Source: a bacterium
GTDB lineage: Bacteria > Auribacterota > UBA3054 > JAPLST01
Assembly (NCBI GenBank): GCA_026417575.1
Contig: JAOACZ010000128.1
Coordinates: 5,127 to 69,126 of the forward strand
Length of the DNA stretch: 64,000 bases
Direction: 5' to 3'
Shown piece after piece: positions 1,707 to 49,192 of this stretch. The notes below the pieces were generated by a model. That model had not been told where the DNA came from. It saw only the letters and a list, made by a program, of their open reading frames with translations, and did no database searches. Both the position numbers and the translations under genes were made by a program. Each line of letters begins with the position of its first letter. Position 1 is the first letter of the stretch.

Positions 1707-1782
<76 letters not shown>

Positions 1783-1849: not shown

Positions 1850-2388
1850 AGTCCAAAAGTGCGTAGCTGGTGTTTTTTTGCCGTGAACCGATGAGCACTA
1901 GCGATGTGCGTACTGATAAGTTCCGTGGCGCTTTCCTCGAGCAGGCTTGAAGTGAAGCGTTCTTTAGTACTCCCACGTGCATGCTACCCGTGTTGAATCC
2001 GCGCAGTCCATGTTCCTCAGGCGAGACGGCGCGAGGCGTGGAAGGCAGTACATTACCTGAAACGCGTTCATTCGTATGGCACGGATGGACCATCACCGGC
2101 ATCGCTTGCTCACCCAGCTGGGCGAAGAGTTCGTCCGCCCAAGCGACGTGCTGGTGAAGATTTCAATCGGCTGGTGAAATAAACATGCGTTCGTGTTTGA
2201 GATTCGCGGGGGTGTAAGGTTGCGCACGGAAAAAAAGTGCGCCAACGCGCGGGTCGTTCCCAGCACCATTCAAGTGCGGGCACTGAGGTTCTGGAGACGG
2301 CTGGTGTGACTGCCGCGTGCTCTCCGCAGAGCTCGCTTCGAGAGTCTTGCCGCAGAAGCGCGCGGGTTCCGCTACATCTTGGGGGGAC

Positions 2389-2417
2389 TTGATTTTTGAA
2401 CCACAATGTGCTACACT
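2389..2417 (+). promoter_or_regulatory. sigma70-type promoter of the candidate sRNA
   Basis: TTGATT (2389-2394), 17-nt spacer, TACACT (2412-2417). Predicted TSS is near 2424. Confidence 0.45.
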
Positions 2418-2423
2418 ATACGC

Positions 2424-2586
2424 ACGATGGCGAGCGAGATGCGGCATCCTTAGATGGATACACGACAAACAGCAAGTCCCTCCTCCACAAACCGATATCC
2501 ATGGCCGCATCTCAACGCTCAACATCATTCAGCCACCGCGGCTGGGAACGTCACCCCCAGGACAAGTACCAGCCGCTTTTTATTTC
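2424..2586 (+). ncRNA. Candidate structured small RNA (about 160 nt), family unknown
   Basis: Bounded by a promoter and a terminator. Long imperfect helix: GATG/CATC, GAGC/GCTC, GAGATGCGGC/GCCGCATCTC (2426-2445 with 2504-2526). Inner 7-bp helix ATGGATA/TATCCAT (2454-2460 with 2496-2502). The 35-nt apical loop contains CCCUCCUCC (2478-2486). No credible ORF. Confidence 0.45.
2538..2586 (+). terminator. Rho-independent terminator-like hairpin plus U-tract
   Basis: GCGGCTGG (2538-2545) pairs with CCAGCCGC (2569-2576). An inner CTGGG/CCCAG pairing is possible. Followed directly by TTTTTATTT. Confidence 0.5.
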
Positions 2587-2645
2587 TTCGTGACGCGCGC
2601 TACCGCGCTTCACGCTCATGACGTCTCGCAGGCGAGCGCTTTCGC

Positions 2646-3569
2646 ATGCCAACGCCCGCTCACGAAAATCCGCTCCACACCGCAGTTCGCCAGTTCGTCC
2701 TTCATCTTCAGCTCGAACGTGGGTTGGCGCGCAACACCTGCCTGGCTTACGAAAACGATGTGCGGCTCTTCGGCGCGTTTCTGGCCCGGCATGGTATCAA
2801 TGCCTGGCACGAGGTCACACCTGCACATATTACTGACTTTCTCACCGAGCGCCATGCTCTCCGGCGTAGCGTGAATACTGTTTTGCGCGAGTTAATTGCC
2901 TTGCGCGTGTTCTTCCGATATCTGGTGCAAGAGAGAACGGTTCAGGAGGACGTGACCGCACGCGTGGAAGCACCTAAAGTGTGGCGTCTATTGCCAGAGG
3001 TGCTGAGCGAAGGGGAGATGCAACAGCTTCTGACAGCGCCGGATGAGCGCACGTGGCGTGGAGCGCGAGACAAAGCCATGCTTGAGTTGTTGTACGCGAC
3101 GGGTCTGCGGGTGAGTGAACTTGTGACCCTACGACTAGGTGACGTGGATTTGGAGAGCGGATTCTTGCGGTGTCGCGGGAAAGGCGGAAAAGAGCGTGTG
3201 GTTCCGATTGGCGCGCCGGCACGTGCGGCGCTGCGAGCTTACCTGTCATGGCGCGGATCGGGAGCGGGAGCCGAACCCCTTTTTTGTACCTCACGGCATA
3301 CAGCCATGACGCGTGTGAACTTTTGGAAACGCATTACTCAGTATGCAAAAAGGGCTGGGATTCTCAAGGCCGCGCATCCACACATCGTGCGCCATTCCTT
3401 TGCCACGCACTTACTTATGCATGGCGCTGACTTACGCGTGGTACAGGAGCTTCTCGGGCACGCAAACATCACGACCACGCAACGATACACGCACGTGGAC
3501 CATCAACGTTTACGCGCTGTGCATCGCCAATTCCATCCCCGTGCGCGCTTGCCGCGCGGTGAGGTATGA
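2646..3569 (+). CDS. xerD: Tyrosine site-specific recombinase XerD
   Basis: 307 aa. Contains RDKAMLELLYATGLRVSELV, HIVRHSFATHLL, LLGHANITTTQRYTH and ends HPRA, close to the E. coli XerD motifs as I recall them. Confidence 0.8.
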   Translation: MPTPAHENPLHTAVRQFVLHLQLERGLARNTCLAYENDVRLFGAFLARHGINAWHEVTPAHITDFLTERHALRRSVNTVLRELIALRVFFRYLVQERTVQEDVTARVEAPKVWRLLPEVLSEGEMQQLLTAPDERTWRGARDKAMLELLYATGLRVSELVTLRLGDVDLESGFLRCRGKGGKERVVPIGAPARAALRAYLSWRGSGAGAEPLFCTSRHTAMTRVNFWKRITQYAKRAGILKAAHPHIVRHSFATHLLMHGADLRVVQELLGHANITTTQRYTHVDHQRLRAVHRQFHPRARLPRGEV

Positions 3570-5866: not shown

Positions 5867-8800
5867 TCAGCGTAACTCCACGTCCACGCGGGCCACCTCA
5901 CCTGTGCGCAAGCGCAGAGCAAGCTCAGTTGGTAGCCAGGGGCCCGCCACCGTGCAGGTGCTACCGTCGCGCATGCGGACGTGATACGTTGCCGGCGTAA
6001 CGGCGCGGGGCCCGAAAGTCGCGCGTCGTTGCGGATTGTGATAGACGAGGAGCGTGCCACCCAGAATGACGAACGCGCAGGCGTGCGCAGGAATCGTCAC
6101 CGTTTGCCTGCCCTCTAACGATTCCCACGTGCGCGTGACGGCGCGCCGCGTAAACAATTCCGCAGGAAGAATCGGTTGGAAACGCGCACGCAGCGCCCCT
6201 TGTGCGTCCAGAGAAAATATCCGCGCCGCGCCGCTCAGCTCTAACCACATACTGATGAACTCTACCGTTGCCCCGCTCAAGCGCGCGTAGAAACCGGTAC
6301 CATGAATGCGCCGATCTTCGTGCGCACTGCTGGCGATGAACGACGCATGCTCAAGCGGACTACGCCCGTAGCGCTGCGGCGGCTGGTAGGGCACAAGCGC
6401 GTCACGCGCCACAGCAAAAAATTGCTCGTATAGACCAGCGCGGAGCAGTGCAAAGAAATACTTGTACTCCATGTGCATCCACACGGATTGATTTTCGAGC
6501 CAGCCGGGCGGAAAGATATTTGCGCGGCCGATCTCCTGTGTGATCCGCGCCAACGGCGCGTTGAGCACGAACATGCGCAAGGTGCGGTCGTAGAGCGGGC
6601 TGCGAAGCACAGCTCGATGCAGCGCACGTGCTGCCGCGGGTCCCTCCAGCACATACATTACGCGCACCTGCGGCTCAAGAAACGGCGGCAAGGTTACGCG
6701 CGTGAACGACTCAGGCCAGACACACGGATGCCCGTCATGCCGACGCGGCGCACCGTCTGGGCCAGGGAGGACGCGGTACTGCGTCACGTTATAGAAAAAA
6801 TATCCGTGGTACAAGCCAGTGCGCTCGTCTCGGGCGCGGCGAATGGCACTCTGCAGCACCGTTTCCCACATTGCAAGCGTTTCTTGCAATTCATCCATGG
6901 TAATCGTTGTCGTCGCGCCGTCAACGCCGAGCCGCGTGTCAGTCAAGTAACGCTCCAGAGCGTCGTTACGCGCATGCCAGCGCGCGAGCGCTGTAGCGGA
7001 CGCATCCCACGAGGCTCTGAGATCGCGCACCAACTCTGCCAGTTCCACGCAACAGCTAATTCCACCGTGCGCCGGCAGGTGCGCGTGCAAAAACCGCACC
7101 AAGCGGAGTAATTCAGCCGTCTCGTTAATTGAAGAGCCGATAAGCCCCGGGAGGCCATTGAGGGCGTCGTTCCACCCCGGCCTGTTGCCACGCATTTCCA
7201 GCCCAAGTTCTTCAGGATCAAGCAAAGCCATCTTCACCGCTACCACGGAGAGAATCTTCTCGGACAACGTGGTGCGGTAGACCACGCCCTTGCCGTGCTC
7301 GGTGCGGACGCATGTCGGATCGTCTCGCCGCGCTGCAATTAACGCAGCTTTCTCAGGGTCGCGGGTGAGGGCATTGTGTTGGCGCACCACGCCACGCGCT
7401 TCGTCCAGGGTAAACCGCGTGTCGCGCGGCAGCATTATTTCGGGATTATCGTGATACGTATAGCTGCAGTCTTTAAAGAGAGCTGCAGCGGCGTGATCAG
7501 GATACACGGCGAGGTAATTTTCGAGTAAATCGAGGCAGTAGACCCAATGGTCAGACCAGTAGCCGTCGCTCCCTCCGAAGCGATCCACGCGGCGTGCGTG
7601 CGCCAGTAGGGTTGCAAGGACCTGCGGCGGGGGAAGTTTCTCTTGTAGCGCTGCGCGGGCGAGCTCCCCTGGTGTCGTGAGTGCGCCGGCAAATTTTGTT
7701 GCAAGTGTGCGGAGCTGCGCAGGCAGCGCACGTGTAGGCAGATCTATTGGGAGCGCGAACGCGGTGCCAAGGTAGACCAACGGATTGTTGCCATCCAGCT
7801 GGAGCGCGTTAAAAAATGTGCGCACGTTGGTCAATTCCACCGGCGGATGAAAGAGCACATCAGCGCGGCGATTCTGATTGATGTCGCGATAATTCGCATT
7901 GCCCTGAGAGTAATAGGCTGGCTCGAGCGCGAACCAGTTGTAATCGCGTTCCATGTCGCCATGCTTGCGAAAATAGAGATGAAAAATTTGCCGCCCCAGT
8001 GACACAGGGAGGCCACCACGCAGGACATTATCCAAATATGTTTGGCGGCAGTAATAGTCGAAGGTTGGCTGGGATGTCACCGTCCACATGCGGTCTTCAA
8101 TTTGGGCGATCAGACGCGCATTTTCGTCGCGCTTTTTGGCAAGCCAGTCTGGTTTTGCGAGCAGGGTCCGCAACCGTGTTACGTCGCGCGGCGCAGCGAC
8201 ATTGCCAACACAACTGAACCAGGTGCAACTGCTTCCTGCAGGCAGGTTCCGCGCAAAGCAAGCAAACGCACATGGCATAAACCCACGCGAGCGGAGAGCT
8301 CCGCGCCGCACCCGCCCATCGCGTGCCACCCAGGCTTGCGGCATATGCAGATCTCCGCCCTCATCGAAAATCTCGCGCGGATCGCCAATCATCTGCACCT
8401 GCGGTTGCCCCGCGCCCGTCACCACCGTGGTCAAGTAGTTAAAGGTTGTGTTGAAATCCGGCGTGACGGTGTCATAGTGAATGACGCGTGCGCGACTCAC
8501 CAGTACTCCCGGCGCTGGCGTGAGCGTCTCAATCACCCCAGCCTCCGTGTTGCTCATGTGCACATAGTCAGCCACGCACACACTGCCGGGGACAAAGCGC
8601 GCCACACCGTCCGCAATACGTACCAGCCGTGCTCGCCGGCTCGTGTTGGTAAGTGTCACCCAGCGCACCAGGGCGCCCCACGGCATTTGCGGCAGGGTAA
8701 AGTAAAGCACATGCACCCGCCACCCTAGCGACGGGTTGTCATCTTCAATCTCCAGCTCATGTGCGCGCACCCACAGGGTCTGTCGCGCTCCTTTCGCTCC

Positions 8801-26618: not shown

Positions 26619-26772
26619 GGTGGATGTGCCGCTATCGCATGGTGGGAGGGCGCGCGCAAACACTTGGGCGGGAGGGGACCGAACCGAGAAAATGTTATAC
26701 TAGGTGTGGGCGCAACATAAGCCCAAGGCACGCTCTTGTCCTACCGTTGTGTCACACACTCAAGGATCTGCC

Positions 26773-28779
26773 ATGAAAATGCAGCTTTTGCGGTGGTTGC
26801 GAGATGCTTCTCTCTGTGGCGTCGCGTTGGTCTTCTGCTTTATCCTCAACGATAATAGCCTTGCGGCGCCAGTGAGCACGCCGCAGGCGTATACAGCTGC
26901 GCTGAGCTTTGTGTGCCTGCGTTTTCCGGCACGGCCCGGGGCGGCGGTGCGCAGTATCACGGCACGAGGGCGTTCGGCCCTGGGGATTGCACGAGTGGGG
27001 CGCATGCGGGGTTCTGGGGGGCGCACGATCGCGTTTCTCGCGCAGTTGACACCGCGAGGTTTTGTCCTTTTGCGTGCGGATGACGAGCTCCCTCCGCTCA
27101 AGCTGTACAGCGACACGACGATGTTTGAGAATCTGCCTGGATGGGCGCGGAGGGTGGTGGCCGAGGAGTTAGAGGAGGAGCTCCTGGAACTTTTGCGACG
27201 ACGGACCGGGGGCGTGGTGCGGGTGCGCTCATTTACTGGCGCGTGGCAGGCGTTAGCTGGGAACGCGGGGGAGAACGGGGCTCATGGTACTGAGGAGTGG
27301 GTGGGGGCAGCGGCGGTGGGGCCGTTGTTATCGACGGCGTGGGATCAAGGTGACCCGTACAACCTGCACATGCCAACGGTAAGTGGGGCACCGAGTGGCT
27401 ATGGTGGTCGTGCGCCGGCGGGGTGCGGAGCGATCGCGTTAGCACAAATTTTGCGTTATCATACGAAACCCGCCCAGATTGCGAGTGACGAGACGTACAC
27501 AGACAATAATGGCTCGTGTCGCGGCACGCATTCGGCGAGCAAGGCTGGCCTGACACCGTATGATTGGGCGAATATGCCTGCAAGCGTGACATCGGGAAGT
27601 TCTGCGGTGCAGAAGAACGCGGTGGCGCAGCTGATTTGGCATTGTGCCGTTGCCCTGCATATGGACTTTGAAGCGAACGGGAGCGGGTCGTCGACCAGCG
27701 CGGCGGTGAGTGCCTTACGTACACTTTTTGGTTACACGTGCGACAACTACGTGACCCGTAGTGGGTTCAGTGATAGCGCATGGTTTGCCAAACTGAGCAA
27801 CGATATCAACGCGGCCAAACCGGTAGAGTATGTAATTACCTCGAGTGAGGGTGGTCACATGGTAGTGTGTGATGGGGTGACAGGGACGAGTCAGATTCAC
27901 CTCAATTTTGGGTGGGGAACGTTTTTGCCTGGCGCGACCGCGTGGTACGATTTGAACAGTATCGTCGCGGGCGGCTCGACGTGGACGACGCATGGTGCGA
28001 TTTTCAACATTACGCCGCCGACGAGCGGCACAGCGCCGACGGTTACGGCTTTTAGCATCAACAATGGGGCGGCATCTACGTCCACGCGTACGGTAAGCTT
28101 GAACAATACGTGTAGCGGATCGCCGACAGAGTATATGGCAAGTGAGAGCAGCAGTTTTTCTGGGGCGAGCTGGCTGCCGTACAGTCCAGCGCCCAGTTTC
28201 ACGCTGAGCAGCGGCAATGGGACGAAAACGGTGTACTTTAAGGTACGAAATTCATTTGGCACGTCGAGTGCGGCGGCGGACACGATTACGCTCAATGAGA
28301 GCAGCTATCCGCCTCTGGTGGTTTTGCGGATGCGGGAGAAGATCAATTGGGCCAAAGGGGGTGTGGGGTCGGGGGTGGTAAGCGTGGCGGTGCCGACAGC
28401 TTTGACGAGTTTGGCGTCCTTTCTCCCGTCGTACAGTGAGGTCATGCGCATTTCTGCGGATGGCACGCAGTGGTTGCTCTGCCCGAGCGGTGAGTTTATC
28501 AAGGCTGATAAAAACTACACCAAGTTAGTGTACTTTTCAAAGAGTGGCGCGTCGTTCCGTAAGACGGTAATGCGCCTCGCTGGGGGGTATTTGTTCATTA
28601 CGCGGACGCATGCGAATGCACTGAACCGCGAGTTTGGGTATCAGGTTACTTCAGCGGGGACGGCGGGGTGGCAACAAAAGACCGTGTATGTACGCGTGAA
28701 TTTCAGTGGTGTACAGGGGGAAGGTACGCACACGATTACGTATAAGACCGTAGACGGCCTGGTTACCACAATTAAGTGA
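26773..28779 (+). CDS. Secreted C10-family (streptopain-like) cysteine peptidase with N-terminal pro/inhibitor-like region and C-terminal extension
   Basis: Start revised to MKMQLLRWLRDASLCGVALVF. Contains WDQGDPYN...APAGCGAIALAQILRYH (catalytic Cys context) and later HMVVCDG. About 230 aa of extra C-terminal sequence. Confidence 0.7.
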   Translation: MKMQLLRWLRDASLCGVALVFCFILNDNSLAAPVSTPQAYTAALSFVCLRFPARPGAAVRSITARGRSALGIARVGRMRGSGGRTIAFLAQLTPRGFVLLRADDELPPLKLYSDTTMFENLPGWARRVVAEELEEELLELLRRRTGGVVRVRSFTGAWQALAGNAGENGAHGTEEWVGAAAVGPLLSTAWDQGDPYNLHMPTVSGAPSGYGGRAPAGCGAIALAQILRYHTKPAQIASDETYTDNNGSCRGTHSASKAGLTPYDWANMPASVTSGSSAVQKNAVAQLIWHCAVALHMDFEANGSGSSTSAAVSALRTLFGYTCDNYVTRSGFSDSAWFAKLSNDINAAKPVEYVITSSEGGHMVVCDGVTGTSQIHLNFGWGTFLPGATAWYDLNSIVAGGSTWTTHGAIFNITPPTSGTAPTVTAFSINNGAASTSTRTVSLNNTCSGSPTEYMASESSSFSGASWLPYSPAPSFTLSSGNGTKTVYFKVRNSFGTSSAAADTITLNESSYPPLVVLRMREKINWAKGGVGSGVVSVAVPTALTSLASFLPSYSEVMRISADGTQWLLCPSGEFIKADKNYTKLVYFSKSGASFRKTVMRLAGGYLFITRTHANALNREFGYQVTSAGTAGWQQKTVYVRVNFSGVQGEGTHTITYKTVDGLVTTIK

Positions 28780-40524: not shown

Positions 40525-41751
40525 TTATTCCCTGGCGAAGGCAGCGACACGGGCGTCTGTGTCGTTCGTCAGGCGCGCGAGAAGAGCACGGGCTGCCTGA
40601 TTTGTTTCCATGCGCAGGCGGAATGCAAGGAAGCGCCGTGTATCTCTATCCTGCTCGCGCACAACTGGCGCGAGGAGGTGAGTGGTACGGGGAAGAGAAG
40701 CGAGGCAATCAATGGCTGCCGCGCGCGCCGTGAACGAGGTGCTGCGCAGAGAGGGCTGAACGTCGGCTAGTTTGGCCGAGAGTTGACCTGGTAAGCGCCA
40801 GAGGGTGAGGACGAGCATTGCTTCTGAGGAGATCGTGTTAATGGTAAACAGAATGGAAGAGGGTTGCTCCCAATTCCAACGGCAGGTATCGCGATCGCGG
40901 TTGCGGTTGGCGCGTAGGGCACGCCGCAACGTGGCGGCGCGCTGATCGGCGGACATTCGGAGGTTATAGACGGCGCGATACACAGGTTTATCCCAGAGGA
41001 ACGCGTAGGGATGCTGGCAGAGTAATTCAAGTGGTTGCAACGCCTGCGGCGCGCGAGAATGATCGAGGAGCACAGCGGCCGTGGTGAGGGCTTCCAGGGT
41101 CGTCCGCACGTCGAAGATCGTGTTGTTTCCAGCGGAGCGGTGTGGGAAGTCTAGGTCGGGAGCAGCTCCTGAGGGAGAAGGTGTGGCGCCCTGTAGATCT
41201 GGAAAAAGCTCTGGCCGAGCACGTACGGCAAACGCCCAAGCTGGTGTGAGGGGTTCGAGGCTACGCACATAGATAACGGGGGGAAGTGTGTGGAGTAAGC
41301 GCGTGATTTCTGCTGCGATCAACTCGTACACAGCAGGGTAGCGTGCGCGGTAGAGAGCCACGCAGGCAGCGGGCGTTAGGCGAAAGTGGTCGCGAATTAC
41401 GCTGTCAGCAGTAGGGTCATGAGTGCGCAGAGTAGCGAGCGCATGCAAGGCGTAGCCACGTGCAATATCAAGACTTTTTGGGTTGACCGTAGCGATTGTA
41501 CCAGCTTCGAACTCGTCACATCGTTGCAAGATGGCAGCGAGGGCGCGTACGCTGCGCTGATCGGGCAATTGAGCGAGGCGTATGGCATACTGCCGGAGTT
41601 CACTTGGAGAGAGAGCCAGGCGAGCGGCGTGCTCATACCGCTCGATTTCAGCCAGCTGGTCAGGGGAGAGAGCTGGCGCTGGGATGGCGCAGAGTACGGC
41701 GAGGAGTGCGCCAAGGAGTGATCGCCAGCGGGGGAATGGGCGGGAGGTCAT
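40525..41751 (-). CDS. Secreted hypothetical protein, helical-repeat-like
   Basis: Start revised to MTSRPFPRWRSLLGALLAVLCAIPAPA (ATGA overlap with the upstream stop at 41748-41751). No recognisable catalytic motif. Confidence 0.55.
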   Translation of the reverse strand: MTSRPFPRWRSLLGALLAVLCAIPAPALSPDQLAEIERYEHAARLALSPSELRQYAIRLAQLPDQRSVRALAAILQRCDEFEAGTIATVNPKSLDIARGYALHALATLRTHDPTADSVIRDHFRLTPAACVALYRARYPAVYELIAAEITRLLHTLPPVIYVRSLEPLTPAWAFAVRARPELFPDLQGATPSPSGAAPDLDFPHRSAGNNTIFDVRTTLEALTTAAVLLDHSRAPQALQPLELLCQHPYAFLWDKPVYRAVYNLRMSADQRAATLRRALRANRNRDRDTCRWNWEQPSSILFTINTISSEAMLVLTLWRLPGQLSAKLADVQPSLRSTSFTARAAAIDCLASLPRTTHLLAPVVREQDRDTRRFLAFRLRMETNQAARALLARLTNDTDARVAAFARE

Positions 41752-44700
41752 GGGGCGCTGGGCGAAGAGGAAAGCAGGATGGTGCGCATGGAGGCGTGGG
41801 TGAGGCGGTGGTTGGCATCGAGCAAGGCGGGGTACGTGTCTGGGGGAAAGACAGCAGGGCGTAGGCGGAGGTCCTGGGTCATGGGGAGGAGGTTGGTAGC
41901 ACTGCAATGCCACTTGGCACTGCAGCGGACGAAGCCAGTTTGTTGGGGGGCGTACCATGTGTACGTGGGCGGAAGTAACTCAGCGTGAGCGAAGGAAGTG
42001 GGCAGGTGTACGTGGGTGGTGATGGTTATTTCGTTGTCGCTGTCCCAGTAATACGGAGTTGAGCGTGTATCAGCCCGCAGGCCGGGCAAGCTGATTAAGC
42101 CGGCAGGCAAGGTGCCGTACAAACTTGTGCCGTCACGTACCAAGTAGCGTGGCACGTGGACAGTAAATTCCTCGACGCCCGGGTAGCGCTCGTGCTGGGT
42201 GTGGAGCGGGCCGATGGCGCGGGCGGCTTGAGAGATGTTAGCGACGAGTTCCAGGTAATGGCGACGGCGCTGTTCGGGCGTCATCTCAGTGTACTGTTTG
42301 CGAAACGCGCCGAACGAGGTGCCGTAGTAGACGCGCCGATACGTGAGGCGCGCGTCGCCTTGCTCGTCGACGGAGAGGTCGTAGAACAGTTCGGTGTGAG
42401 AGCGGCAGCGGCGGGGTGCGCGCACGCGAGTAAGCGTACCGGCCGGCAAGAGCAGCGCGGGCCGGCCATCATGACGTGTGACACCTAATTCGGCGTATTG
42501 GTCGGTGTCATTTAAGTACCACGTTTCGGCGCCACACAGGACGCGGACGAGGACGGTGGGGAACACGTGACGTTGCGGGCAGAGGAGGCGTGGGTTGTTT
42601 GGCCGGGTGAGGCGTGGCTCACTTGAGGCCAGGACGAATTCAGCTGTAACGCCGATGGCGCGAAGCATAGAGAGGTAAAGGATCGCGCGGTCTGCGCTAT
42701 GACCATAGCCATCATGGAGGGTGCGATCGGCGGGGGAGAGGGAGGTGAGTGGCATGGCAGGGAAGGGAGGCCCGGCGGCACGGATGTGTGTGGCGATGAA
42801 ATCACGCACCGCGCGGATTTTGGCGCGGCGACACGCGAGCCCCGCGGTGAGGGCTTGTGCGCGGGCGATCGCAGCGGTTTGCCCCTCGGTAGCACGGAGC
42901 AACGCGGCGTGCACTTCCGCTGCGTAGCGCTTCCAGGTACCGCAGGAGGCCACGACACCTGGGGCGAACATCCAGAGCGGGGGCTGATTTGGTTCTGGAG
43001 TGATTGGCGGTTGATTGGTCATTTCCCAGGTGTACTCGATGACAGCGTGGTTGCTGGCGATGGTTTCCATGACCTGGCCGCCGGGGGTGAAACAACGTGT
43101 GAAAGGCAACTCGAGCGGGACGCGGCAGCGCACACGCTTACGCTGGATCGGATCGAACGTGCGGAAGAGTGCGTAAAGGTCGCATGAGGGCCGGTGGCGC
43201 TGTGTGCGCTCCACGCAATACTCGATCGTACTGCCGATTTCCACGCCGGGCAAATTTACGACGAGGATTTTCTCGCCTGGGTAGCGCGGGGCCCTCCCTA
43301 CCCATGGGGCGTCCATGTAGTTGATTTCATTGGTGCTGGCAGTGAAGAGGCGGCCATCGGGCGTTGTCACGCGGGCGTAGTGGAGGGTGACCGTGTCCCA
43401 CACAGGATTGAAGGGAACTTTCAATTCGGCATGTTGTTTCTTACCGGCGTAGGTGAGGATCTGCTTTTTGACGCGTGTGAGGACACGTTGGGTGTGCGCA
43501 TCATGGACTTCATACAGTTCATCGGCGTCGTGAATAACGACGTCTCCGCGAGATGGGTCGGCCTCGCGCGCGAAAATAGCGCGTTTGCGGCGGTCGAACT
43601 CGATTGAGCGTAGAGCGTCTTTCAAGGCACGGTAGTCCTGAGGCGAGAACTCGACCAGGCGGAGTTGCTGGAGGGCGTGCGCATGGAGAACGCCGTCACG
43701 TACGGTCATCTGAGCCTGCCACACGAGGGAGGACGAGATGATGGCTTCGATGTGGGGGAGCGTGTGGACCGGCCCGGCCGCGCCATCCATGGTCAAACGG
43801 ATATTCTCGGAGACGCCGCAGGCGTACTTTGTTTCGAGGGGATACTTGCGCTCGTCCAGACCGGTTGCGCCAATGACGAAGTTGATCAGGCCGACGGAGG
43901 TGCCGAACCACAGAGGCGGCAACATGACGACTTGGGGGCCGACGATGGGGAATTCACGGGCTTCGTAGGTTAGGTGGACATGGAGGGGCTTGCTCATGTC
44001 GCGCAGTTCTCGTGGCGTGATTTCGCACGCGAGGATGCGTGCGCCAGGCACGACACGTTTGACGAGACCTTCAAACATGTGGCGGCGTTCTATTGGTTTC
44101 ATGCGCACCAGGGCGCTGCGGTACGCGTTGTCGTTAATACCGTCAAAGGAAAGCCGGGTTTGGGCGCGCAGCGTACCGTCGCGAGAAAGCTCCCCGGTCG
44201 TTTTGATGCGCATCATATTGGCCTCGGCTGGTATGATTGGGGAGACGCGTAAACAGTCGCCCGCGGGCTTCGCAACTAAATAACTCCGATCACATAAGTA
44301 CGCAGGGAGAAGTTCTTTGGTGGTTTCGTCGGTAGGATCCATGAGTGTGTACGAGCCGTCGGCTTCTTCCACAGCGACGACGGCGTGATTAAAGAAGGGC
44401 TGAGGCACCTCAGGATCTTTCTTGGGACCGATGTACATGAGGACAGGGTAGGCTTTGAAGCCAGCGAGGCGGAGCAAGGCAACTAGTAATGCGCCTTTGT
44501 CGCGACAGACACCGTATTTATTTTCGAAGGTGACGCAGACATCGTGGGGTTCGTAGCCGGGAGCTTCAGTTTCGGTGGTGATACCCATGTAGCGAATGTT
44601 TTGAGAGACGTAGTAGAAGAGGGCTTCGAGGCGGGCGCGGTCGTTTGTCAGGCCGGCGGTGAGTTCGGCGACGAAGTTGCTCATTGCGGGGGTGGTGGCG

Positions 44701-45539
44701 GCGAGGCGTGGAGCACAGAGGGCGTGATACCAGCGGGAGACCGTGGCCCAATCAGGAATGGTACTTACGAGCAAACGTTGTACGACGGTGTGGAGCGCGG
44801 GCATGTTTGGTTCTGGAAACATTCGGGGCACATTGCGTACTTTCCAGAGGTAGAAGTTAGTGCCGCCAGCCGAGTGCATGCTTGCGACGACGGTATTGGA
44901 CACAGGGGCCTTAATCACGAGGTGAACGAGGGGACGGCTGGTGGGCCCCCAAATTTCGTAGGTGCTATGGAGGATTGGTGAAGTGAGTTCGAAGAGGGTG
45001 TAATCACTGAAGGTGTCGGGCATGCGGGCTTTGGTGGTAATACGACGCACGACGTAGCGGCACAAGTCACCTGGTTCGAGCCCGGGGATGCTGACATGGA
45101 GGACTTTGCTCTGGGGGTCGAAAATATTTTTGTTCATCTGTGCATCATCTATGGTGATGCGACTTTGGGCGCTGAGATTGACAGGGATGATGCGGCCGTC
45201 TGGTTTGAGGAGTTCCACGAGCTCCACCATGGCGGTGCCGTAGCTGACATTAAAATGAATGGAGAGTGTGCGATTATCGCGCGCGCCTTTATCGGTGAGG
45301 ACTTTCACACAAGTGTCGGCGAGGCTTTCCCAGGTTCCGTTCGCGGCGTAGATGATGCGGGTGTGGTCGTCGACAAGGACGTCATCGGCGTCAGGGAAGG
45401 CAGCGCGGGTAATGTGAGCGCTCGTACGTTGCAAGGATGCGCGGTCGAGCAGGCCGATGGAGGGGGTGCTAAGGGCAAGGTGGGCTCCCAAGAGCACCGC
45501 GACGAGCACGCTCACGGCGTGCTTAGATGCAGTCTTCAT
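41748..45539 (-). CDS. Secreted DUF3857 / transglutaminase-like / DUF3858 protein
   Basis: 1263 aa with a signal peptide. The transglutaminase-core triad context is YGVCRDKGALLVALLRLAG ... FNHAVVAV ... LMDPTDE. Confidence 0.7.
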   Translation of the reverse strand: MKTASKHAVSVLVAVLLGAHLALSTPSIGLLDRASLQRTSAHITRAAFPDADDVLVDDHTRIIYAANGTWESLADTCVKVLTDKGARDNRTLSIHFNVSYGTAMVELVELLKPDGRIIPVNLSAQSRITIDDAQMNKNIFDPQSKVLHVSIPGLEPGDLCRYVVRRITTKARMPDTFSDYTLFELTSPILHSTYEIWGPTSRPLVHLVIKAPVSNTVVASMHSAGGTNFYLWKVRNVPRMFPEPNMPALHTVVQRLLVSTIPDWATVSRWYHALCAPRLAATTPAMSNFVAELTAGLTNDRARLEALFYYVSQNIRYMGITTETEAPGYEPHDVCVTFENKYGVCRDKGALLVALLRLAGFKAYPVLMYIGPKKDPEVPQPFFNHAVVAVEEADGSYTLMDPTDETTKELLPAYLCDRSYLVAKPAGDCLRVSPIIPAEANMMRIKTTGELSRDGTLRAQTRLSFDGINDNAYRSALVRMKPIERRHMFEGLVKRVVPGARILACEITPRELRDMSKPLHVHLTYEAREFPIVGPQVVMLPPLWFGTSVGLINFVIGATGLDERKYPLETKYACGVSENIRLTMDGAAGPVHTLPHIEAIISSSLVWQAQMTVRDGVLHAHALQQLRLVEFSPQDYRALKDALRSIEFDRRKRAIFAREADPSRGDVVIHDADELYEVHDAHTQRVLTRVKKQILTYAGKKQHAELKVPFNPVWDTVTLHYARVTTPDGRLFTASTNEINYMDAPWVGRAPRYPGEKILVVNLPGVEIGSTIEYCVERTQRHRPSCDLYALFRTFDPIQRKRVRCRVPLELPFTRCFTPGGQVMETIASNHAVIEYTWEMTNQPPITPEPNQPPLWMFAPGVVASCGTWKRYAAEVHAALLRATEGQTAAIARAQALTAGLACRRAKIRAVRDFIATHIRAAGPPFPAMPLTSLSPADRTLHDGYGHSADRAILYLSMLRAIGVTAEFVLASSEPRLTRPNNPRLLCPQRHVFPTVLVRVLCGAETWYLNDTDQYAELGVTRHDGRPALLLPAGTLTRVRAPRRCRSHTELFYDLSVDEQGDARLTYRRVYYGTSFGAFRKQYTEMTPEQRRRHYLELVANISQAARAIGPLHTQHERYPGVEEFTVHVPRYLVRDGTSLYGTLPAGLISLPGLRADTRSTPYYWDSDNEITITTHVHLPTSFAHAELLPPTYTWYAPQQTGFVRCSAKWHCSATNLLPMTQDLRLRPAVFPPDTYPALLDANHRLTHASMRTILLSSSPSAP

Positions 45540-45564
45540 AGCGAAGCCTCGTGGTTACGCGTTC

Positions 45565-45593
45565 ATTATACTGATTCTGCCTTGCACAGGTAA
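45565..45593 (-). promoter_or_regulatory. sigma70-type promoter of the DUF3857 gene
   Basis: Minus strand reads TTACCT-17 nt-TATAAT, 25 nt upstream of the ATG at 45539, with ACGAGG as SD. Confidence 0.45.
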
Positions 45594-45815
45594 AGGAGAG
45601 GCGGCCGGCAGGCGAGAGATGTAGCGATGCAGCGGGAGGGAGAGGAACGCGTGCTGATTGTGTGACGGAGCGGCGATTTTTGCGCAAAACTTGCTCGGGA
45701 AAGTGTTGCATGGAGAGCTTTCAACAATTGATGGTTTTGACGTGAGTGATGCGGAGATGGGGGGACGAACATTGCGGCGGAAGCGATCAAGCGACAAAAA
45801 GAGGAGATTGCAGAT

Positions 45816-46053
45816 GACAAAAAATGTCGTTTGAGACGGCGAGGTGTTGAGGTAGGTAGTGCGAAAGCGACGCGGGCAACGGGCTGGTTCCTGCAAAGGC
45901 TTCAGTCAACGAAAAATGTCGTTTGCAATCGGCAAAAAGTGTCGATTGAAGAGCGGGTAGTGGCGGCGTATGGAGTTCAGATGAACCTGGCTGGGGAGTG
46001 GAACAAATGTTCTTTGGCCAGCAAATTGGAACGACGAAAAATGTCGTTTGCAG
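45816..46053. repeat. Cluster of 4-5 copies of a 14-17 nt dyad-symmetric motif (core AAAAATGTCGTTTG)
   Basis: Copies: 45816-45836 gacaaaaaatgtcgtttgaga; 45907-45928 caacgaaaaatgtcgtttgcaa; 45931-45950 ggcaaaaagtgtcgattgaa; 46033-46053 gacgaaaaatgtcgtttgcag. A degenerate palindrome gaacaaatgttc lies at 46001-46012. Confidence 0.7.
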
Positions 46054-46132
46054 AGGAGCTGAAAGGCCGATTAAGAGGATACGAGAGGTGGTTGACAGCG
46101 ATTTGATCGCGCGGGAGGGCAGGGCCGGCGCG

Positions 46133-49100
46133 TTACTGTTTTTTCTCCGGGGGGGGTAAGGGGATGTTGTCGAGCAAACCGCGGATCATCTTCACACCCG
46201 TGCCGAGTTCCTTGCGAATAGCTTCCGTAGGGAGTTTGTCGATGACATTTTGGAACAGGGCGCGCGGGTCGAGGCCGAGGAGGGGCATGAATTGGTCAAG
46301 TAAGGAGTTGTAGGGCAAGCCAATTTGTGGCTCTTTGAAAGTCCCGGTGATGGGGATGGGGAGGGGCAAATCGTAGTAGCGGCCGAGCTCGCCCGAGAAA
46401 GGCAGTTTATTATCGAGGAGATCGGTGATGCCTTTGGCGGTGAGGGCGAGATGCATCATCAGGTCGAGTTGCTGAGCGAAGGTGACGTTGCCACGGAGAC
46501 TGATGCGCGCGAGTGGGCCCTGCAAGGCGACAGAGGTAAGATGGACGATGCCGGTGTGAATGGAGATGCGAGCGAGGGCATCGCCGACAGTATAATTCTC
46601 GAGGGCTTCGAGATGCAGGGCGCGACCGACGGCGGAGAGGACGGGGACGTTGACGAGGCGGCCATTTGTCATATCGGCGTTGAGTGAGCCGCGGAGGTTG
46701 CGGGAGAGACTTGGGAGACGGATGCCGCGACCGGCGAGTGTGAGCTCTGTGGCGAGCAGGCCGTCAATGGTATCGCGGCGGTCTGGGGTGAATGTATTGA
46801 AGATAGGTTGGAGGGGGAGGTTGGTGAGGGAGAGGGCGAGGCGATAAGCGTAGCCAGTGAGAGTGAGATCAGCGTCTGCGGAGAGGTCAATCCGGCCGCC
46901 ATTGAGGCGGAGTTCTGGTGTACGGAGGGTGAGTTGGCCATTGTTGAGAGAGAGGTCGAGGTAGAGGGGGAGGAAGAGGAGCTCGCGGGCGCGGAGTTCT
47001 TCAATGCGTACGCGGACAGAGGCGTCACGGCCGTAGAGGGGGAGGGGTGGAGGTTCAGGTGCTGGGGTGGTGGTAGGCGGAGTGTGGGGGGGTGAAGATT
47101 CGCGGGGAGTGGGAGTGGGCTGAGGGGGTTTTGGGGGCATAAAGGTATCGAGCAACACGGTTGCATCGAATTGAGGGGAGGAGAGGGTAAGTGAGGTGGG
47201 AGCGTTGGTGGGCACGAGCATGACTTCGCCGTGGAGGCTGAGTTTGTTGTCGCTGAAGCGGGCGGGCTGGAGGTCGAGGGTACAGCGGGGGAGGCGAAGG
47301 AGGTCGGGGCGGAGTGCGGCGTGAAGATTGAGGCGCAGCTTATCCCAGTCTGAGGATGTGCGGCGGGCGGTGTTTTCGATGGCGAGGTCGAGGCCGATTT
47401 GTTGGGCTTTGCGGCTGGGGTCAGCTTTTTCGGTGAGAAGCTGGAGGGTAATATCGAGGCCTGCGAGGCGAGGGTTCTGTCTTTTTGGGTCGAGAAGTGG
47501 TTGGAGGACGGTGCTGGAGAGTTTAGCGATGGCGAGAGCAAGGCGATTTGTGCCGGTGGGCAAGTCATAGAAACCACCGAGAGCGATTTGGCCAGCGGGA
47601 ATGTTGTCGTTAGCGATTTGGGCACTGGCGCGGTCTATGACGATGTGCTTGAACTGAGACAGGTTGGCGGCCCAATTGAGGGCGAGATCGAGGTCATTCC
47701 AGTGCGCCTGGTGGAGCTGGAGATTGAGGTCGCCGATAGAGAGGGAGCCACGCGCGGCGAGTGAGGAACCGAAATCGACAACATCGCAGGTGGCGCGGGC
47801 GGAGCAGACACCGGCATTGAAGCGAGAGGGGGTTGAGCGGAGGAAGGCGTTAAGTTGGGATAGATCAAAACGGTCGAGGACGAGCTCGAGGGAGGCTTTT
47901 TCGGAGGTAGCGCGGCGGGCAGCGGTTTTCCAGCAGAAGGTGACGGGTTGGAGGGTACGGGCGGTAAGCAACGTACGTTGGTGTTGGGCTGCGGTGATGA
48001 GGAGATCGGGGAGGGCGAGTTGGCCGAGACGGAGATCGAGAGTGGTGGAGGTGCGAGCGGTGAGGTCGAGCGGGGGCAAGAAAGAGCCATCGGGGGCACG
48101 CAGGCGGAGTTGTGTGAGGCGAGCGGAGAGCTGGGCGGTGAGGGTCTGGGCGTCGGCGCGAGCGAGGGTAGCGAGGGTCACATCGGCGCGAGTGTCACTG
48201 ATGTCGAGCGGTGCGGAAGGCCCGAGCAGGGCCTGCCAGAACGGGCTGGCGTTAAGTTTTAACATGAGTTGATTGTTAATGAGCTGCTGGGCGACGTCAA
48301 GCGAGCCTGTGAGGGAGAGGAAGGCGAGGAGGTCGTTCTGCCAGCGCAGGGTGGCGTCACAGCGGCTCAATTCGAAGCGATCCACACCGCGCTGATGGAG
48401 GTCGATGGAGCAGAGCAGGGTGAGTGGCGTGACATCAAATTGATCGAGGCGACCGAGCAAATTAGAGGCAGTGCAAGAGAAAGTGAGGGAAGACGGGATG
48501 ATGGTGTCTTCAAAGCGCGTATCGAGGCGCAAAGAGAGGGGGACGCGGGAGAGGAGGATGCGGTGGCCATCGGTGAAGGCGAGGGAAGCATCGAGGACAA
48601 GTGAGCCGCGGCGATGGGGGCCGATGCGCTGGGCGGTGAGAGAAAGGCCGGTGATATCGGCATGGGTTCCGGAGAGATCGAAGTAGGTGATGCGGGCATT
48701 GCGGACACGGAGTTCACCGATTGCGACGGGGACGGGGATATTGGGCAAGCGCGGGGGCGGGATGGGTTGTTCGGCACGTGGTGGGCGGGGTGGTGGGGTG
48801 GGGGGCTCGGCGGGTGCTTCTGGGGGGCGCGCGGCGAGACCGATGACGGGGCGGTCAATGATTATGCGATCAATGTGGAGGGGGGAGTCGAGGAGGGCGG
48901 GCAATGTATAACGGACATCGAGTGAGTGAACTTCGATTAGCACGTTGGTCGCGGCGTCGTCGGGCGAGATTTGCTGGATCCGCAGGCCTTCGAGCGCCAG
49001 CGATGACCAGAGGCGTAGGCGCCAGCCTGCGAGACTAACATGATAGGGCGTGAAGCGATTCACTATCGGGACAACGATCCTGCGGACAACAAAGGAGGAG

Positions 49101-49192
49101 TGAATCGCGAGAACAATCAGTACAAGCAGCACCACAACCGCGCCGCCGCCGCCGCCGACGATCCGTAGAACACGCCTGAGCCAACGTTTCAT
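46133..49192 (-). CDS. AsmA-like / DUF748-type large envelope protein
   Basis: 1019 aa. N-terminal TM anchor (RIVGGGGGAVVVLLVLIVLAI), a long beta-rich body, two Pro-rich linkers, and an AsmA-like C-terminal region. Family assignment is by architecture. Confidence 0.55.
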   Translation of the reverse strand: MKRWLRRVLRIVGGGGGAVVVLLVLIVLAIHSSFVVRRIVVPIVNRFTPYHVSLAGWRLRLWSSLALEGLRIQQISPDDAATNVLIEVHSLDVRYTLPALLDSPLHIDRIIIDRPVIGLAARPPEAPAEPPTPPPRPPRAEQPIPPPRLPNIPVPVAIGELRVRNARITYFDLSGTHADITGLSLTAQRIGPHRRGSLVLDASLAFTDGHRILLSRVPLSLRLDTRFEDTIIPSSLTFSCTASNLLGRLDQFDVTPLTLLCSIDLHQRGVDRFELSRCDATLRWQNDLLAFLSLTGSLDVAQQLINNQLMLKLNASPFWQALLGPSAPLDISDTRADVTLATLARADAQTLTAQLSARLTQLRLRAPDGSFLPPLDLTARTSTTLDLRLGQLALPDLLITAAQHQRTLLTARTLQPVTFCWKTAARRATSEKASLELVLDRFDLSQLNAFLRSTPSRFNAGVCSARATCDVVDFGSSLAARGSLSIGDLNLQLHQAHWNDLDLALNWAANLSQFKHIVIDRASAQIANDNIPAGQIALGGFYDLPTGTNRLALAIAKLSSTVLQPLLDPKRQNPRLAGLDITLQLLTEKADPSRKAQQIGLDLAIENTARRTSSDWDKLRLNLHAALRPDLLRLPRCTLDLQPARFSDNKLSLHGEVMLVPTNAPTSLTLSSPQFDATVLLDTFMPPKPPQPTPTPRESSPPHTPPTTTPAPEPPPLPLYGRDASVRVRIEELRARELLFLPLYLDLSLNNGQLTLRTPELRLNGGRIDLSADADLTLTGYAYRLALSLTNLPLQPIFNTFTPDRRDTIDGLLATELTLAGRGIRLPSLSRNLRGSLNADMTNGRLVNVPVLSAVGRALHLEALENYTVGDALARISIHTGIVHLTSVALQGPLARISLRGNVTFAQQLDLMMHLALTAKGITDLLDNKLPFSGELGRYYDLPLPIPITGTFKEPQIGLPYNSLLDQFMPLLGLDPRALFQNVIDKLPTEAIRKELGTGVKMIRGLLDNIPLPPPEKKQ

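What the first reader, a model, noticed from the sequence alone, without database searches (positions are those of the whole stretch)
45816..46053. Array of 4-5 copies of a dyad-symmetric AAAAATGTCGTTTG motif in a 590-bp intergenic region
Four clear copies are 45816-45836, 45907-45928, 45931-45950 (variant AAAAAGTGTCGATTG) and 46033-46053. A related palindrome GAACAAATGTTC lies at 46001-46012. Each has internal symmetry, for example AACGAC-N7-GTCGTT. The copies fall in different reading frames of the only local ORF (45831-46106), so the repeat acts at DNA or RNA level. Spacing is irregular (93, 23, 67, 35 nt), which rules out CRISPR. The copies lie 220-460 bp upstream of the DUF3857 gene promoter and just downstream of the AsmA-like gene. 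I did not notice the motif elsewhere in the window. Possible roles are a multi-site regulator landing pad, an REP-like mRNA-end element, or a small-RNA locus.
Basis: seen in the sequence. Interest (0 to 1): 0.55.

Follow-up and report, generated by a model that had tools for sequence, protein, structure and literature searches.

The report
Dispersed palindromic repeat cluster, REP-like
The repeated motif is real and belongs to a previously undescribed family of about 50-base palindromic repeats scattered through the intergenic DNA of an unnamed, uncultured bacterial lineage, most like the REP/BIME "junk-or-regulatory" repeats of E. coli and Pseudomonas rather than a control region specific to this gene.

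Summary
Window 45788-46050 carries five co-oriented 23-nt units, and nothing similar occurs elsewhere in the 64 kb. Each unit is a 9-bp inverted repeat (CAAWCGACA / TGTCGWWTG) around an A-rich 5-nt spacer. The units form two head-to-tail doublets plus one single unit. The locus itself is not conserved: relatives have other genes upstream of DUF3857. The element is conserved. Near-identical ~50-nt doublets (TTCAATCGACAAAAAATGTCGTTTGCAAWCGACAAAAAATGTYGWTTGAA) occur at unrelated intergenic sites in relatives with 58-63% GC, in a sister group with 35-40% GC, and in a phage-like contig. They lie between convergent genes, at operon junctions, downstream of housekeeping genes and in a 3 x 61-nt tandem array, in either orientation. 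They are present or absent at orthologous sites. Pairing potential is high (83-85%) but shows no covariation, so the sequence itself is conserved, not just a fold. No Rfam family or paper matches. No RAYT transposase was found in the 344 kb available. Best reading (about 0.55): a REP/BIME-like dispersed palindromic repeat recognised by an unknown protein, which would form mRNA hairpins when transcribed. It is a new member of a known kind and of moderate interest.

The parts
45788..45833 (+). Doublet 1. It has two 23-nt units, 45788-45810 (degenerate: CAAGCGACA-AAAAG-AGGAGATTG) and 45811-45833 (CAGATGACA-AAAAA-TGTCGTTTG). The outer arms 45788-45796 and 45825-45833 are still complementary.
   Evidence: Weight matrix from relatives: 13.1 and 32.7 bits. 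Repeat family D1/D2. The DNA fold pairs the outer arms (5th sequence).
45903..45948 (+). Doublet 2, the best-preserved copy. Units are 45903-45925 (CAGTCAACG-AAAAA-TGTCGTTTG) and 45926-45948 (CAATCGGCA-AAAAG-TGTCGATTG). The profile match covers 45901-45951.
   Evidence: nhmmer 55.8 bits, E 1.3e-15 against a profile of doublets that includes this copy. Weight matrix from relatives only: 32.1 and 32.4 bits. Folds as two hairpins (4th sequence).
46028..46050 (+). Single unit 3 (GGAACGACG-AAAAA-TGTCGTTTG), about 80 nt downstream of the AsmA-like stop codon.
   Evidence: 25.0 bits. 7-bp hairpin (6th sequence).
46001..46012 (.). It is not a scoring member of the family and may be a decayed unit.
   Evidence: Matches the 14-mer only at 3 mismatches. 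Below 8 bits with the weight matrix.
45540..46132 (.). 593-bp intergenic region holding the cluster. ORF 45831-46106 (+) inside it is most likely spurious.
   Evidence: ORF list. No Pfam match for the 91-aa ORF. The repeats fall in different frames of it.
45565..45594 (-). Sigma-70-like promoter match (TTTACC-18-TATAAT) upstream of the DUF3857 gene. It lies outside the repeat cluster.
   Evidence: 10 of 12 positions; a consensus match only.
46133..49192 (-). AsmA-like / DUF748 gene. The cluster lies downstream of its 3' end, on the opposite strand.
   Evidence: Pfam PF05170, PF05359.
41748..45539 (-). DUF3857 + transglutaminase-core gene. The cluster lies 250-510 bp upstream of its start.
   Evidence: Pfam PF12969, PF01841. 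100% identical to an NCBI MAG protein.

Best explanation
The cluster is a local array of a lineage-wide, dispersed, extragenic palindromic repeat, of the same kind as REP/BIME/REPIN elements.

Anatomy (shown):
- The unit is 23 nt: two 9-bp arms (half-site TGTCGWWTG) in inverted orientation around an A-rich 5-nt spacer.
- Units normally come as a head-to-tail doublet of about 50 nt.
- A doublet can fold either as two hairpins or as one long hairpin with an A/A internal loop.
- Doublets occur singly, in loose clusters as here, or as exact tandem arrays.

Distribution (shown): the repeat is dispersed, intergenic, independent of orientation, polymorphic at orthologous sites, and conserved in sequence across genomes of very different GC content.

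Mechanism (inferred):
- The family is multiplied or maintained by a sequence-specific trans-acting protein that reads the half-sites. A RAYT-like or other transposase/nuclease is the model. This would explain why the consensus stays fixed while individual copies decay.
- In this window the array has no dedicated role for the DUF3857 gene.
- When the AsmA-like gene is read through, the array would give U-looped hairpins in its 3' UTR. These could stabilise the message or attenuate read-through into the DUF3857 gene, as REPs do in E. coli operons.
For: 1. Real and clustered.

2. The same element sits elsewhere in relatives, not at this locus:
- L004 (DUF3857 71% identical; tetranucleotide correlation 0.98 with the window) has exact copies between the convergent HU and radical-SAM genes, and another between a second convergent pair.
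- L005, L001, L167, L180, L189, L182 and L171 carry doublets.
- All these contigs share the window's tetranucleotide signature, r = 0.91-0.99, against 0.65-0.90 (next highest 0.89) for unrelated contigs of 55-65% GC.

3. Fourteen doublets align without gaps, with 16 invariant columns.

4. Five copies in one low-GC organism share an identical 48-nt core. Their flanks are unrelated or built from other repeat modules, as in a mosaic BIME.

5. Flanking genes are unrelated housekeeping genes: lepA, pgi, apbE, thioredoxin, endonuclease III, gltB and Fe-S proteins. Orientation relative to genes is about 5 sense, 6 antisense and 2 convergent.

6. Tandem amplification: 2.9 copies of a 61-nt unit at 95% identity in L167.

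7. Presence/absence polymorphism:
- The copy downstream of lepA in L165 is missing in L196 and L199, whose LepA is 87-88% identical.
- L005 has a 1.9-kb repeat-rich insertion with two doublets that L001 lacks.
- In L180/L189 synteny breaks about 25 nt after the doublet.

8. Degenerate copies exist, as expected for decaying repeats: window 45788-45810, and L001 7034-7082 with a weak orthologous trace in L005 near 1797-1827.

9. Enrichment: 5 hits of at least 30 bits in about 214 kb of lineage DNA fetched through proteins. The control was 1 partial hit in 1.16 Mb of loci that had been pre-seeded with the 16-mer.

10. Both foldings are 83-85% paired but do not exceed column shuffles. The sequence is constrained, not only a structure.

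11. Doublets, tandem arrays, extragenic location and palindromic cores are the stated hallmarks of REPs/REPINs (PMC3337134).
Against: - No whole genome could be scanned, so copy number is only extrapolated: roughly one cluster per 30-40 kb, or perhaps about 100 per genome. The window itself has a single cluster in 64 kb, and about 60 kb of related DNA (L196, L198, L199) has none.
- No RAYT/Y1 transposase was seen. Pfam on about 35 window ORFs and phmmer with E. coli RayT against all ORFs of 344 kb of lineage DNA found nothing. This is a weak test, because RAYTs are single-copy.
- The two units of a doublet are direct repeats (both spacers are A-rich on the same strand). A classical REPIN has inverted units.
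- No target-site duplication or GTAG-like guide motif is evident.
- REPs are usually species-specific. Here the consensus is nearly unchanged between 35-40% GC and 58-63% GC genomes whose LepA proteins are only about 78% identical. That fits a conserved host protein-binding site at least as well as a selfish element.
Confidence: 0.55

Rival explanations
1. The doublets are binding-site arrays for a conserved host DNA-binding protein, such as a global regulator, a nucleoid-associated protein or a ParB/Noc-like protein. Each doublet offers four half-sites (TGTCGWWTG) for a dimer of dimers. The sites persist because the host uses them, not because they move.
For: - Sequence-level conservation without covariation.
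- A near-identical consensus across 35-63% GC genomes.
- The 23-bp period is about two helical turns.
- The central 18-bp TGTCGTTTGCAAACGACA is a perfect palindrome in L004, L167, L180 and L182.
- The orthologous copy upstream of gltB is retained in L180 and L189.
Against: - Copies lie between convergent gene ends and inside operon junctions. Neighbouring genes have no functional coherence.
- Exact tandem amplification occurs.
- Many copies are decayed.
- Copies are gained or lost at orthologous sites.
- Flanks are a mosaic with other repeat families.
- This rival is not cleanly separable from the best explanation, because REPs are themselves protein-binding sites.
Confidence: 0.2
2. The element acts mainly as RNA, either as hairpins in mRNA untranslated regions (3'-end protection, processing or attenuation sites) or as a multi-hairpin small RNA transcribed from the + strand of this spacer.
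For: - Each unit is a stable hairpin. The whole region folds somewhat better than shuffles on both strands (z = -2.46 on +, -1.81 on -).
- G-T wobbles outnumber A-C mismatches about 2:1 on the A-rich strand, although these counts are not independent.
- Copies sit at operon junctions and gene 3' ends.
Against: - No compensatory changes beyond the column make-up.
- Orientation relative to genes is mixed, so loops are A-rich in some transcripts and U-rich in others.
- No promoter-like site on the + strand and no terminator-like site in the window spacer.
- No Rfam match.
- The stems lack a following U-tract.
Confidence: 0.12
3. The units are recombinase, transposase or replication-initiator sites belonging to a larger mobile element. 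Examples are multi-site transposon ends, tyrosine-recombinase core sites (inverted arms around an asymmetric 5-7-nt spacer) or iterons. On this reading the window cluster marks one end, or a relic, of such an element.
For: - Several co-oriented sites lie at uneven spacing within about 260 bp.
- The arm-spacer-arm geometry resembles recombinase core sites.
- Synteny breaks next to the doublet in L180/L189.
- A phage-like contig with an integrase and a DnaB helicase carries three copies next to its replication genes.
Against: - There is no second, inverted cluster anywhere in the 64-kb window.
- The two clusters in L004 are co-oriented, not inverted.
- Genes around the window cluster are ordinary chromosomal genes.
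- Two of the three phage copies arose by tandem duplication of a gene together with its downstream repeat.
- Dozens of dispersed recombination sites would destabilise a chromosome.
Confidence: 0.08

Closest known systems
REP / BIME elements of Escherichia coli and other Enterobacteria
   Same: Short imperfect palindromes confined to extragenic DNA. They lie at 3' ends of genes, between convergent genes and at junctions inside operons. They cluster and combine in mosaics with other short motifs. They form hairpins in either transcript orientation.
   Different: - The sequence is unrelated.
- The stems are AT-rich with an A5 loop, not GC-rich.
- The apparent density is lower, about 1 cluster per 30-40 kb against about 1 REP per 8 kb in E. 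coli (the E. coli figure is from my own knowledge).
- The consensus is kept across genomes that differ by 25 GC points, whereas REPs are usually species-specific.
- No gyrase, IHF or Pol I data exist here.
REPIN-RAYT systems (Pseudomonas fluorescens SBW25; Bertels and Rainey, PMC3337134, PMC3116915)
   Same: The replicating unit is a doublet of two palindromic REPs that can form one long hairpin. Tandemly repeated doublets occur: up to five in SBW25 and three in L167. Inheritance looks vertical with long persistence. Copies of different ages and states of decay coexist.
   Different: - The two units here abut with no spacer and are direct repeats, about 50 nt in all. The SBW25 REPIN shown in PMC3337134 is 89 bp with inverted REPs.
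- No associated RAYT gene was found in the 344 kb available.
- No conserved flanking tetranucleotide is present.
CIRCE (HrcA operator, TTAGCACTC-N9-GAGTGCTAA)
   Same: A 9-bp inverted repeat around a short spacer, with a sequence held almost constant across distant bacteria. It acts both as a DNA operator and as an mRNA hairpin.
   Different: CIRCE is found only upstream of chaperone operons, one or two copies per genome, and its sequence is different. The element here is dispersed next to unrelated genes, including sites with no promoter.
ERIC/IRU, Correia and RUP-type miniature elements, and Rickettsia palindromic elements
   Same: Small non-coding palindromic repeats shared by several genera. 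They are polymorphic in presence and absence. Occasionally they are read through as part of an ORF. Here the L182 doublet lies in-frame at a junction between Fe-S protein genes, and in L203 the last 21 codons of two phage ORFs are encoded by the repeat.
   Different: Those elements are 100-150 bp, with terminal inverted repeats and usually a target-site duplication. No such repeats or duplication are evident here, and the element is only about 50 nt.

Membership tests
REP / BIME | Short (about 20-40 nt) imperfect palindrome able to form a stem-loop | tested here: met
   23-nt unit with 9-bp arms and a 5-nt spacer. DNA folds range from -5.4 to -15.5 kcal/mol. 83-85% of cells are paired across 14 doublets.
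REP / BIME | Located predominantly in extragenic space | tested here: met
   All clear copies lie between ORFs or at gene junctions. The exceptions are motif-like stretches inside glycosyltransferase ORFs in L044 and L007, which may be chance.
REP / BIME | High copy number, dispersed over the whole genome | tested here: inconclusive
   Dispersal is shown: at least 15 independent loci on contigs of the lineage. Counts per genome could not be obtained. The extrapolated density is about 1 cluster per 30-40 kb.
REP / BIME | Clusters and mosaics with other short repeat motifs | tested here: met
   The window has two doublets plus one unit. L004 has two doublets 93 nt apart. L167 has a 3 x 61-nt array. 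Low-GC copies are flanked by recurring modules AATTCGTGTTCATTCGTG and TTATTTTGCCATTTAATCA.
REPIN-RAYT | Doublet of two REPs in inverted orientation forming one long hairpin | tested here: inconclusive
   Doublets are the rule. The long hairpin is the minimum-energy fold for L180 (-15.5 kcal/mol), but two separate hairpins are favoured for L165-type, L182 and window copies. The A-rich spacers are co-oriented, so the units are direct, not inverted.
REPIN-RAYT | A single-copy RAYT (Y1/HUH transposase) gene flanked by the repeats | tested here: inconclusive
   No hit with E. coli RayT (phmmer, E up to 10) among 2,516 ORF segments from 344 kb of lineage DNA. No PF01797 among the window ORFs scanned. 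Less than a tenth of any one genome was available, so absence is not shown.
MITE | Terminal inverted repeats bounding an internal segment, plus a target-site duplication | tested here: not met
   The five sharply bounded copies from one organism show no duplicated flank. The two halves differ from true terminal inverted repeats because both spacers are A-rich on the same strand.
CRISPR array | Regularly spaced identical repeats separated by unique spacers of similar length | tested here: not met
   The spacings are 23, 92, 23 and 102 nt. No tandem array is detected in the window. The L167 array repeats the unit and its linker together.
Dedicated transcription-factor operator (CIRCE-like regulon site) | Sites sit at fixed positions upstream of a functionally coherent gene set | tested here: not met
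   Two loci lie between convergent gene ends. Neighbouring genes are unrelated. The window's gene junction is not conserved.
Any described RNA family (Rfam 15) | Covariance-model match at or near the gathering score | tested here: not met
   The only Rfam matches in the window are two tRNAs elsewhere. The best match in the spacer is a eukaryotic lncRNA model at 17 bits against a threshold of 60. The L167 array gives nothing above 18 bits.

The most novel reading that the evidence does not exclude
The doublets are the cis-sites of an undiscovered, vertically inherited protein-repeat partnership, held under selection throughout an unnamed deep-branching bacterial lineage. The partner could be a domesticated transposase or a chromosome-organising protein. 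The recognition sequence would have stayed essentially fixed while genome GC content drifted from about 33-40% to about 60%. That would make it one of the most deeply conserved REPIN-like systems known, and the first outside the well-studied Proteobacteria.
Probability: 0.25. Interest if true: 0.6.

Novelty: new member of a known kind. Interest (0 to 1): 0.35.

Why it matters
- For annotating this genome: the 590-bp spacer should be labelled as a repeat cluster. It is not a hidden gene, an sRNA or a dedicated DUF3857 control region.
- More broadly: REP-like families have been characterised almost only in Proteobacteria. Here is a compact, sharply defined family in an uncultured lineage with no named relatives. 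Its consensus survives a 25-point shift in GC content, which argues for a conserved protein partner.
- Practical uses: finding that partner would be a tractable way into the biology of this lineage. The 20-mer ACAAAAAATGTCGTTTGCAA is also a usable marker for pulling its contigs out of metagenomes.

Tried and rejected
- Orthologous-locus conservation: the DUF3857 orthologues at 52-71% identity (L001-L005, L042-L045) all have different upstream genes, so the spacer has no orthologue to align.
The same 16-mer in viral contigs gave 36 single matches, 35 with no further resemblance to the element; the L007 match extends to 29 nt (31 bits) and is unexplained.
- Exact look-up of the window's own DUF3857 protein: not on record.
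- Literature search for the sequence itself: nothing.
- Rfam: nothing.
- Covariation test of two alternative secondary structures: neither beats the shuffles. The wobble asymmetry of 18-20 G-T against 8-9 A-C is too dependent on shared ancestry to use.
- RAYT search: negative but underpowered.
- Empty-site comparison upstream of gltB, window against L180: the intergenic DNA is not alignable at 77% gene identity.
- Motif-like stretches inside glycosyltransferase ORFs (L044/L045, L007): the L044 stretch reads as ordinary coding sequence. I set these aside as unexplained or chance.
- The Methylobacillus palindrome AAATTGCAAACGACAAAAATGTCGTTTGCAATTT (L058/L132): it sits in an AT-rich spacer with a different TTGCAA...CTCGAGA repeat. 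I judged it unrelated.
- 'Endonuclease' PHROG matches of the two L203 ORFs that end in the repeat: the proteins are low-complexity K/R/E-rich paralogues, so there is no convincing enzyme link.

Full report
**1. What is in the window**

The spacer 45540-46132 lies between two genes on the minus strand. One is an AsmA-like/DUF748 gene (46133-49192). The other is a 1263-aa DUF3857/transglutaminase gene (41748-45539).

AAAAATGTCGTTTG occurs three times exactly and once with two mismatches. All four copies are on the + strand between 45820 and 46050, and there are none elsewhere in the 64 kb. The expected number is 0.4, and 0 of 100 shuffles reached four.

Read with its left flank, each copy is the right two-thirds of a 23-nt palindromic unit. 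The unit has a 9-bp arm CAAWCGACA, an A-rich 5-nt spacer and a 9-bp arm TGTCGWWTG. Units sit head to tail at a 23-nt period. This gives:
- doublet 1 at 45788-45833, with a decayed inner half;
- doublet 2 at 45903-45948;
- a single unit at 46028-50.

A weight matrix built only from relatives' copies finds exactly these five units. It finds nothing else above 8 bits in the window apart from reverse-strand echoes, and the best shuffle score was 15.6. The GAAC-N4-GTTC palindrome at 46001-46012 exists but does not score as a member.

The spacer has a promoter-like site for the DUF3857 gene at 45594-45565. It has no terminator-like site, no promoter-like site on the + strand and no Rfam match. ORF 45831-46106 has no Pfam match.

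**2. The locus is not conserved, but the element is**

The DUF3857 protein is 100% identical to a protein from an NCBI MAG labelled only 'bacterium'. Its nearest relatives are 67-71% and then about 52% identical.

None of the contigs carrying those relatives has an AsmA-like gene upstream. The spacer therefore has no orthologue.

The closest relative is L004, with a tetranucleotide correlation of 0.98 to the window. It carries two exact copies of the 14-mer, each within a doublet, 93 nt apart, between the convergent HU and radical-SAM genes. A third unit lies between another convergent pair. L005 and L001 carry more diverged doublets.

**3. Wider sampling**

A scan of the genome collection with a 16-mer was wasted. 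A viral scan gave 36 single matches. These loci then served as a 1.16-Mb negative control. No full doublet occurs in them.

A metagenome scan with RCRAAAAATGTCGTTTGCAR returned 29 loci. Ten of them carry the full architecture:
- L167 and L180 (one metagenome);
- L182 and L189 (the same metagenome as L001);
- L171;
- five contigs from one sample with only 35-40% GC (L165, L172, L176, L181, L188).

The consensus is TTCAATCGACAAAAAATGTCGTTTGCAAWCGACAAAAAATGTYGWTTGAA. Fourteen doublets align without gaps, with 16 invariant columns.

A phage-like contig of 33% GC, with a DnaB helicase and an integrase, carries three copies at gene junctions. Two of them arose by tandem duplication of a gene together with its downstream repeat.

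**4. Who carries it**

All the high-GC contigs share the window's tetranucleotide signature. The correlation is 0.91-0.99, against 0.65-0.90 (next highest 0.89) for unrelated contigs of 55-65% GC.

L165 encodes LepA. Its LepA clade (72-89% identity) has no named members. The clade includes a closed 4.04-Mb genome of 33% GC, which also holds a DUF3857 homologue. It also includes a 59% GC contig, L198, from the same metagenome as L001, L182 and L189. The next-best hits, at 61-63% identity, are spread over Victivallaceae, Sumerlaeia, Verrucomicrobiae and Firmicutes.

The element is therefore shared by high-GC and low-GC branches of one unnamed deep lineage. LepA is about 78% identical between the branches.

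**5. Context**

Neighbouring genes are unrelated: lepA, pgi, apbE, thioredoxin, endonuclease III, a PHP-domain gene, a sugar-binding protein, gltB, Fe-S proteins and a helicase.

Positions of the copies:
- between convergent gene ends (two loci in L004);
- between co-directional genes (window, L167, L172, L181, L188);
- downstream of genes (L165, L176);
- about 220 bp upstream of gltB (L180/L189);
- 150 nt upstream of tRNA-Met (L001);
- exactly at the junction of two Fe-S protein genes, where the reading frame stays open (L182).

Orientation relative to genes is roughly even: about 5 sense, 6 antisense and 2 convergent.

L167 has 2.9 tandem copies of a 61-nt unit (a doublet plus 9 nt) at 95% identity.

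In the low-GC organism, five copies share an identical 48-nt core with sharp edges. Their flanks are unrelated or built from other recurring modules, which makes the structure a mosaic.

**6. Turnover**

- The copy downstream of lepA in L165 is absent from L196 and L199, whose LepA is 87-88% identical.
- L005 has a 1.9-kb repeat-rich insertion with two doublets where L001 has 123 nt.
- In L180/L189 (91.5% identical) the alignment ends about 25 nt after the shared doublet.
- Decayed copies are common.
- In about 214 kb of lineage DNA fetched through proteins, and so not selected for the motif, there are five hits of at least 30 bits. One of them lies inside an ORF. The control was one partial hit in 1.16 Mb of loci that had been pre-seeded with the 16-mer.

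**7. DNA or RNA**

A doublet can fold as two hairpins or as one long hairpin. The preferred fold differs between copies.

Both models are 83-85% paired across the alignment. Neither exceeds column shuffles on any measure, and compensatory changes are few and split between the two models. Pairing potential is therefore a by-product of conserved palindromic half-sites, not of selection for a fold.

The whole spacer folds slightly better than shuffles on both strands. G-T wobbles outnumber A-C mismatches about 2:1 on the A-rich strand, but the counts are not independent.

With the mixed orientation, this points to recognition of the sequence by a protein. That recognition could be of duplex DNA or of single-stranded hairpins. 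It does not point to a structured RNA gene.

**8. Interpretation**

The anatomy and distribution match the stated hallmarks of REP/BIME/REPIN elements (PMC3337134):
- a short palindromic unit;
- doublets;
- loose clusters and exact tandem arrays;
- extragenic location, including convergent gene ends and operon junctions;
- mosaic flanks;
- decaying copies;
- gain and loss at orthologous sites.

Differences from those elements:
- the two units are direct and abutting;
- the stems are AT-rich;
- the apparent density is modest;
- no RAYT was found in the limited DNA available;
- the consensus is unusually stable across very different genomes.

I therefore file it as working like a REP/BIME element, with membership of the REPIN-RAYT class untested.

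For the window itself, the inferred consequence is a set of U-looped hairpins in the 3' region of the AsmA-like transcript. These could stabilise it or dampen read-through towards the DUF3857 promoter. Nothing shows a role specific to the DUF3857 gene.

**9. Verdict**

The locus-specific landing pad and the sRNA are not.
- Novelty: a new member of a known kind. It is unreported as far as Rfam and the paper library show.
- Interest is moderate (0.35). It is raised by the cross-GC conservation and the unknown partner protein. It is lowered because dispersed palindromic repeats are a familiar class.

Noticed in passing
window 22000-56000: Very strong positive GC skew on the + strand (+0.13 to +0.41 per 2 kb), regardless of gene orientation. 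It falls to about zero or negative before about 20 kb and after about 58 kb. This is far above ordinary replication skew. The cause is unknown: extreme strand asymmetry, an inverted segment or a chimeric assembly are possibilities.
   Followed up: no
window 1565-3569: tRNA-Ser(GCT) and tRNA-Lys(CTT) on the - strand are followed by a XerC/D-type tyrosine recombinase gene (2646-3569, PF00589 + PF02899). This is either an integration hot spot or simply the chromosomal xerC/D gene.
   Followed up: no
L182 7814-7866 (ORF 6900-8543): A doublet sits exactly between a NapH-like Fe-S gene and a downstream Fe-S gene and keeps the frame open, so the two are predicted as one 547-aa ORF. The downstream part begins MSFANDEKCRLNPPATRPDLSRRSLLGALAAG, which uses the motif's own ATG in front of a Tat signal.
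   Followed up: partly
L203 2005-2054, 2867-2913, 4486-4521: A phage-like contig (33% GC, with DnaB helicase and integrase) carries three copies at gene junctions. Two tandem paralogous K/R/E-rich zinc-finger ORFs both end in ...MLLFVNILN(Q/R)HKLSVVNDKKC*, and this tail is encoded by the repeat itself.
   Followed up: partly
L044/L045 6184-6227 and L007 2556-2584: Motif-like stretches lie antisense inside glycosyltransferase ORFs (a GT4-like ORF and a GT2 ORF). One has two TGTCGTTTG at the 23-nt period. The other is a 29-nt match to the doublet centre. Both are too good for chance by simple arithmetic, yet the L044 stretch reads as ordinary coding sequence. Unexplained.
   Followed up: partly
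L005 4983-6884: A 1.9-kb non-coding insertion, absent from the 85-90% identical L001, is packed with other repeat families. One example is three copies of about 90 nt starting GATGCACACACATGCAGCGCCGTCCCGCGCATCCGCC. Two doublets in inverted orientation also lie about 730 bp apart within it.
   Followed up: partly
L165, L176, L181, L188 (flanks of the doublets): Two further short repeat modules recur next to the doublets in the low-GC organism: AATTCGTGTTCATTCGTG and TTATTTTGCCATTTAATCA. A GC hairpin CGCGCGTRGCTCCTGCTGCGCG follows two of the copies.
   Followed up: partly
L180 4855-4975; L189 5185-5215: Other local repeats lie just beyond the doublet. L180 has a 60-nt tandem pair containing the hairpin GGCCGCCGGCCCCGGCGGCC. 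L189 has a (CGTAAAT)n heptamer run.
   Followed up: no
L058 5582-5609 and L132 (Methylobacillus flagellatus): AAATTGCAAACGACAAAAATGTCGTTTGCAATTT is a perfect 14-bp-arm palindrome identical to one unit of the element. It sits in an AT-rich spacer with several TTGCAA...CTCGAGA repeats. It is probably unrelated, but the coincidence is striking.
   Followed up: partly
window 26704-28779 and 41748-45539: The window has a Peptidase_C10 gene 13 kb from the DUF3857 gene. In relatives L001 and L005 the two genes are adjacent, and the 414-430-aa gene downstream of DUF3857 is conserved (window 40525-41958). This suggests a rearranged functional cluster.
   Followed up: no
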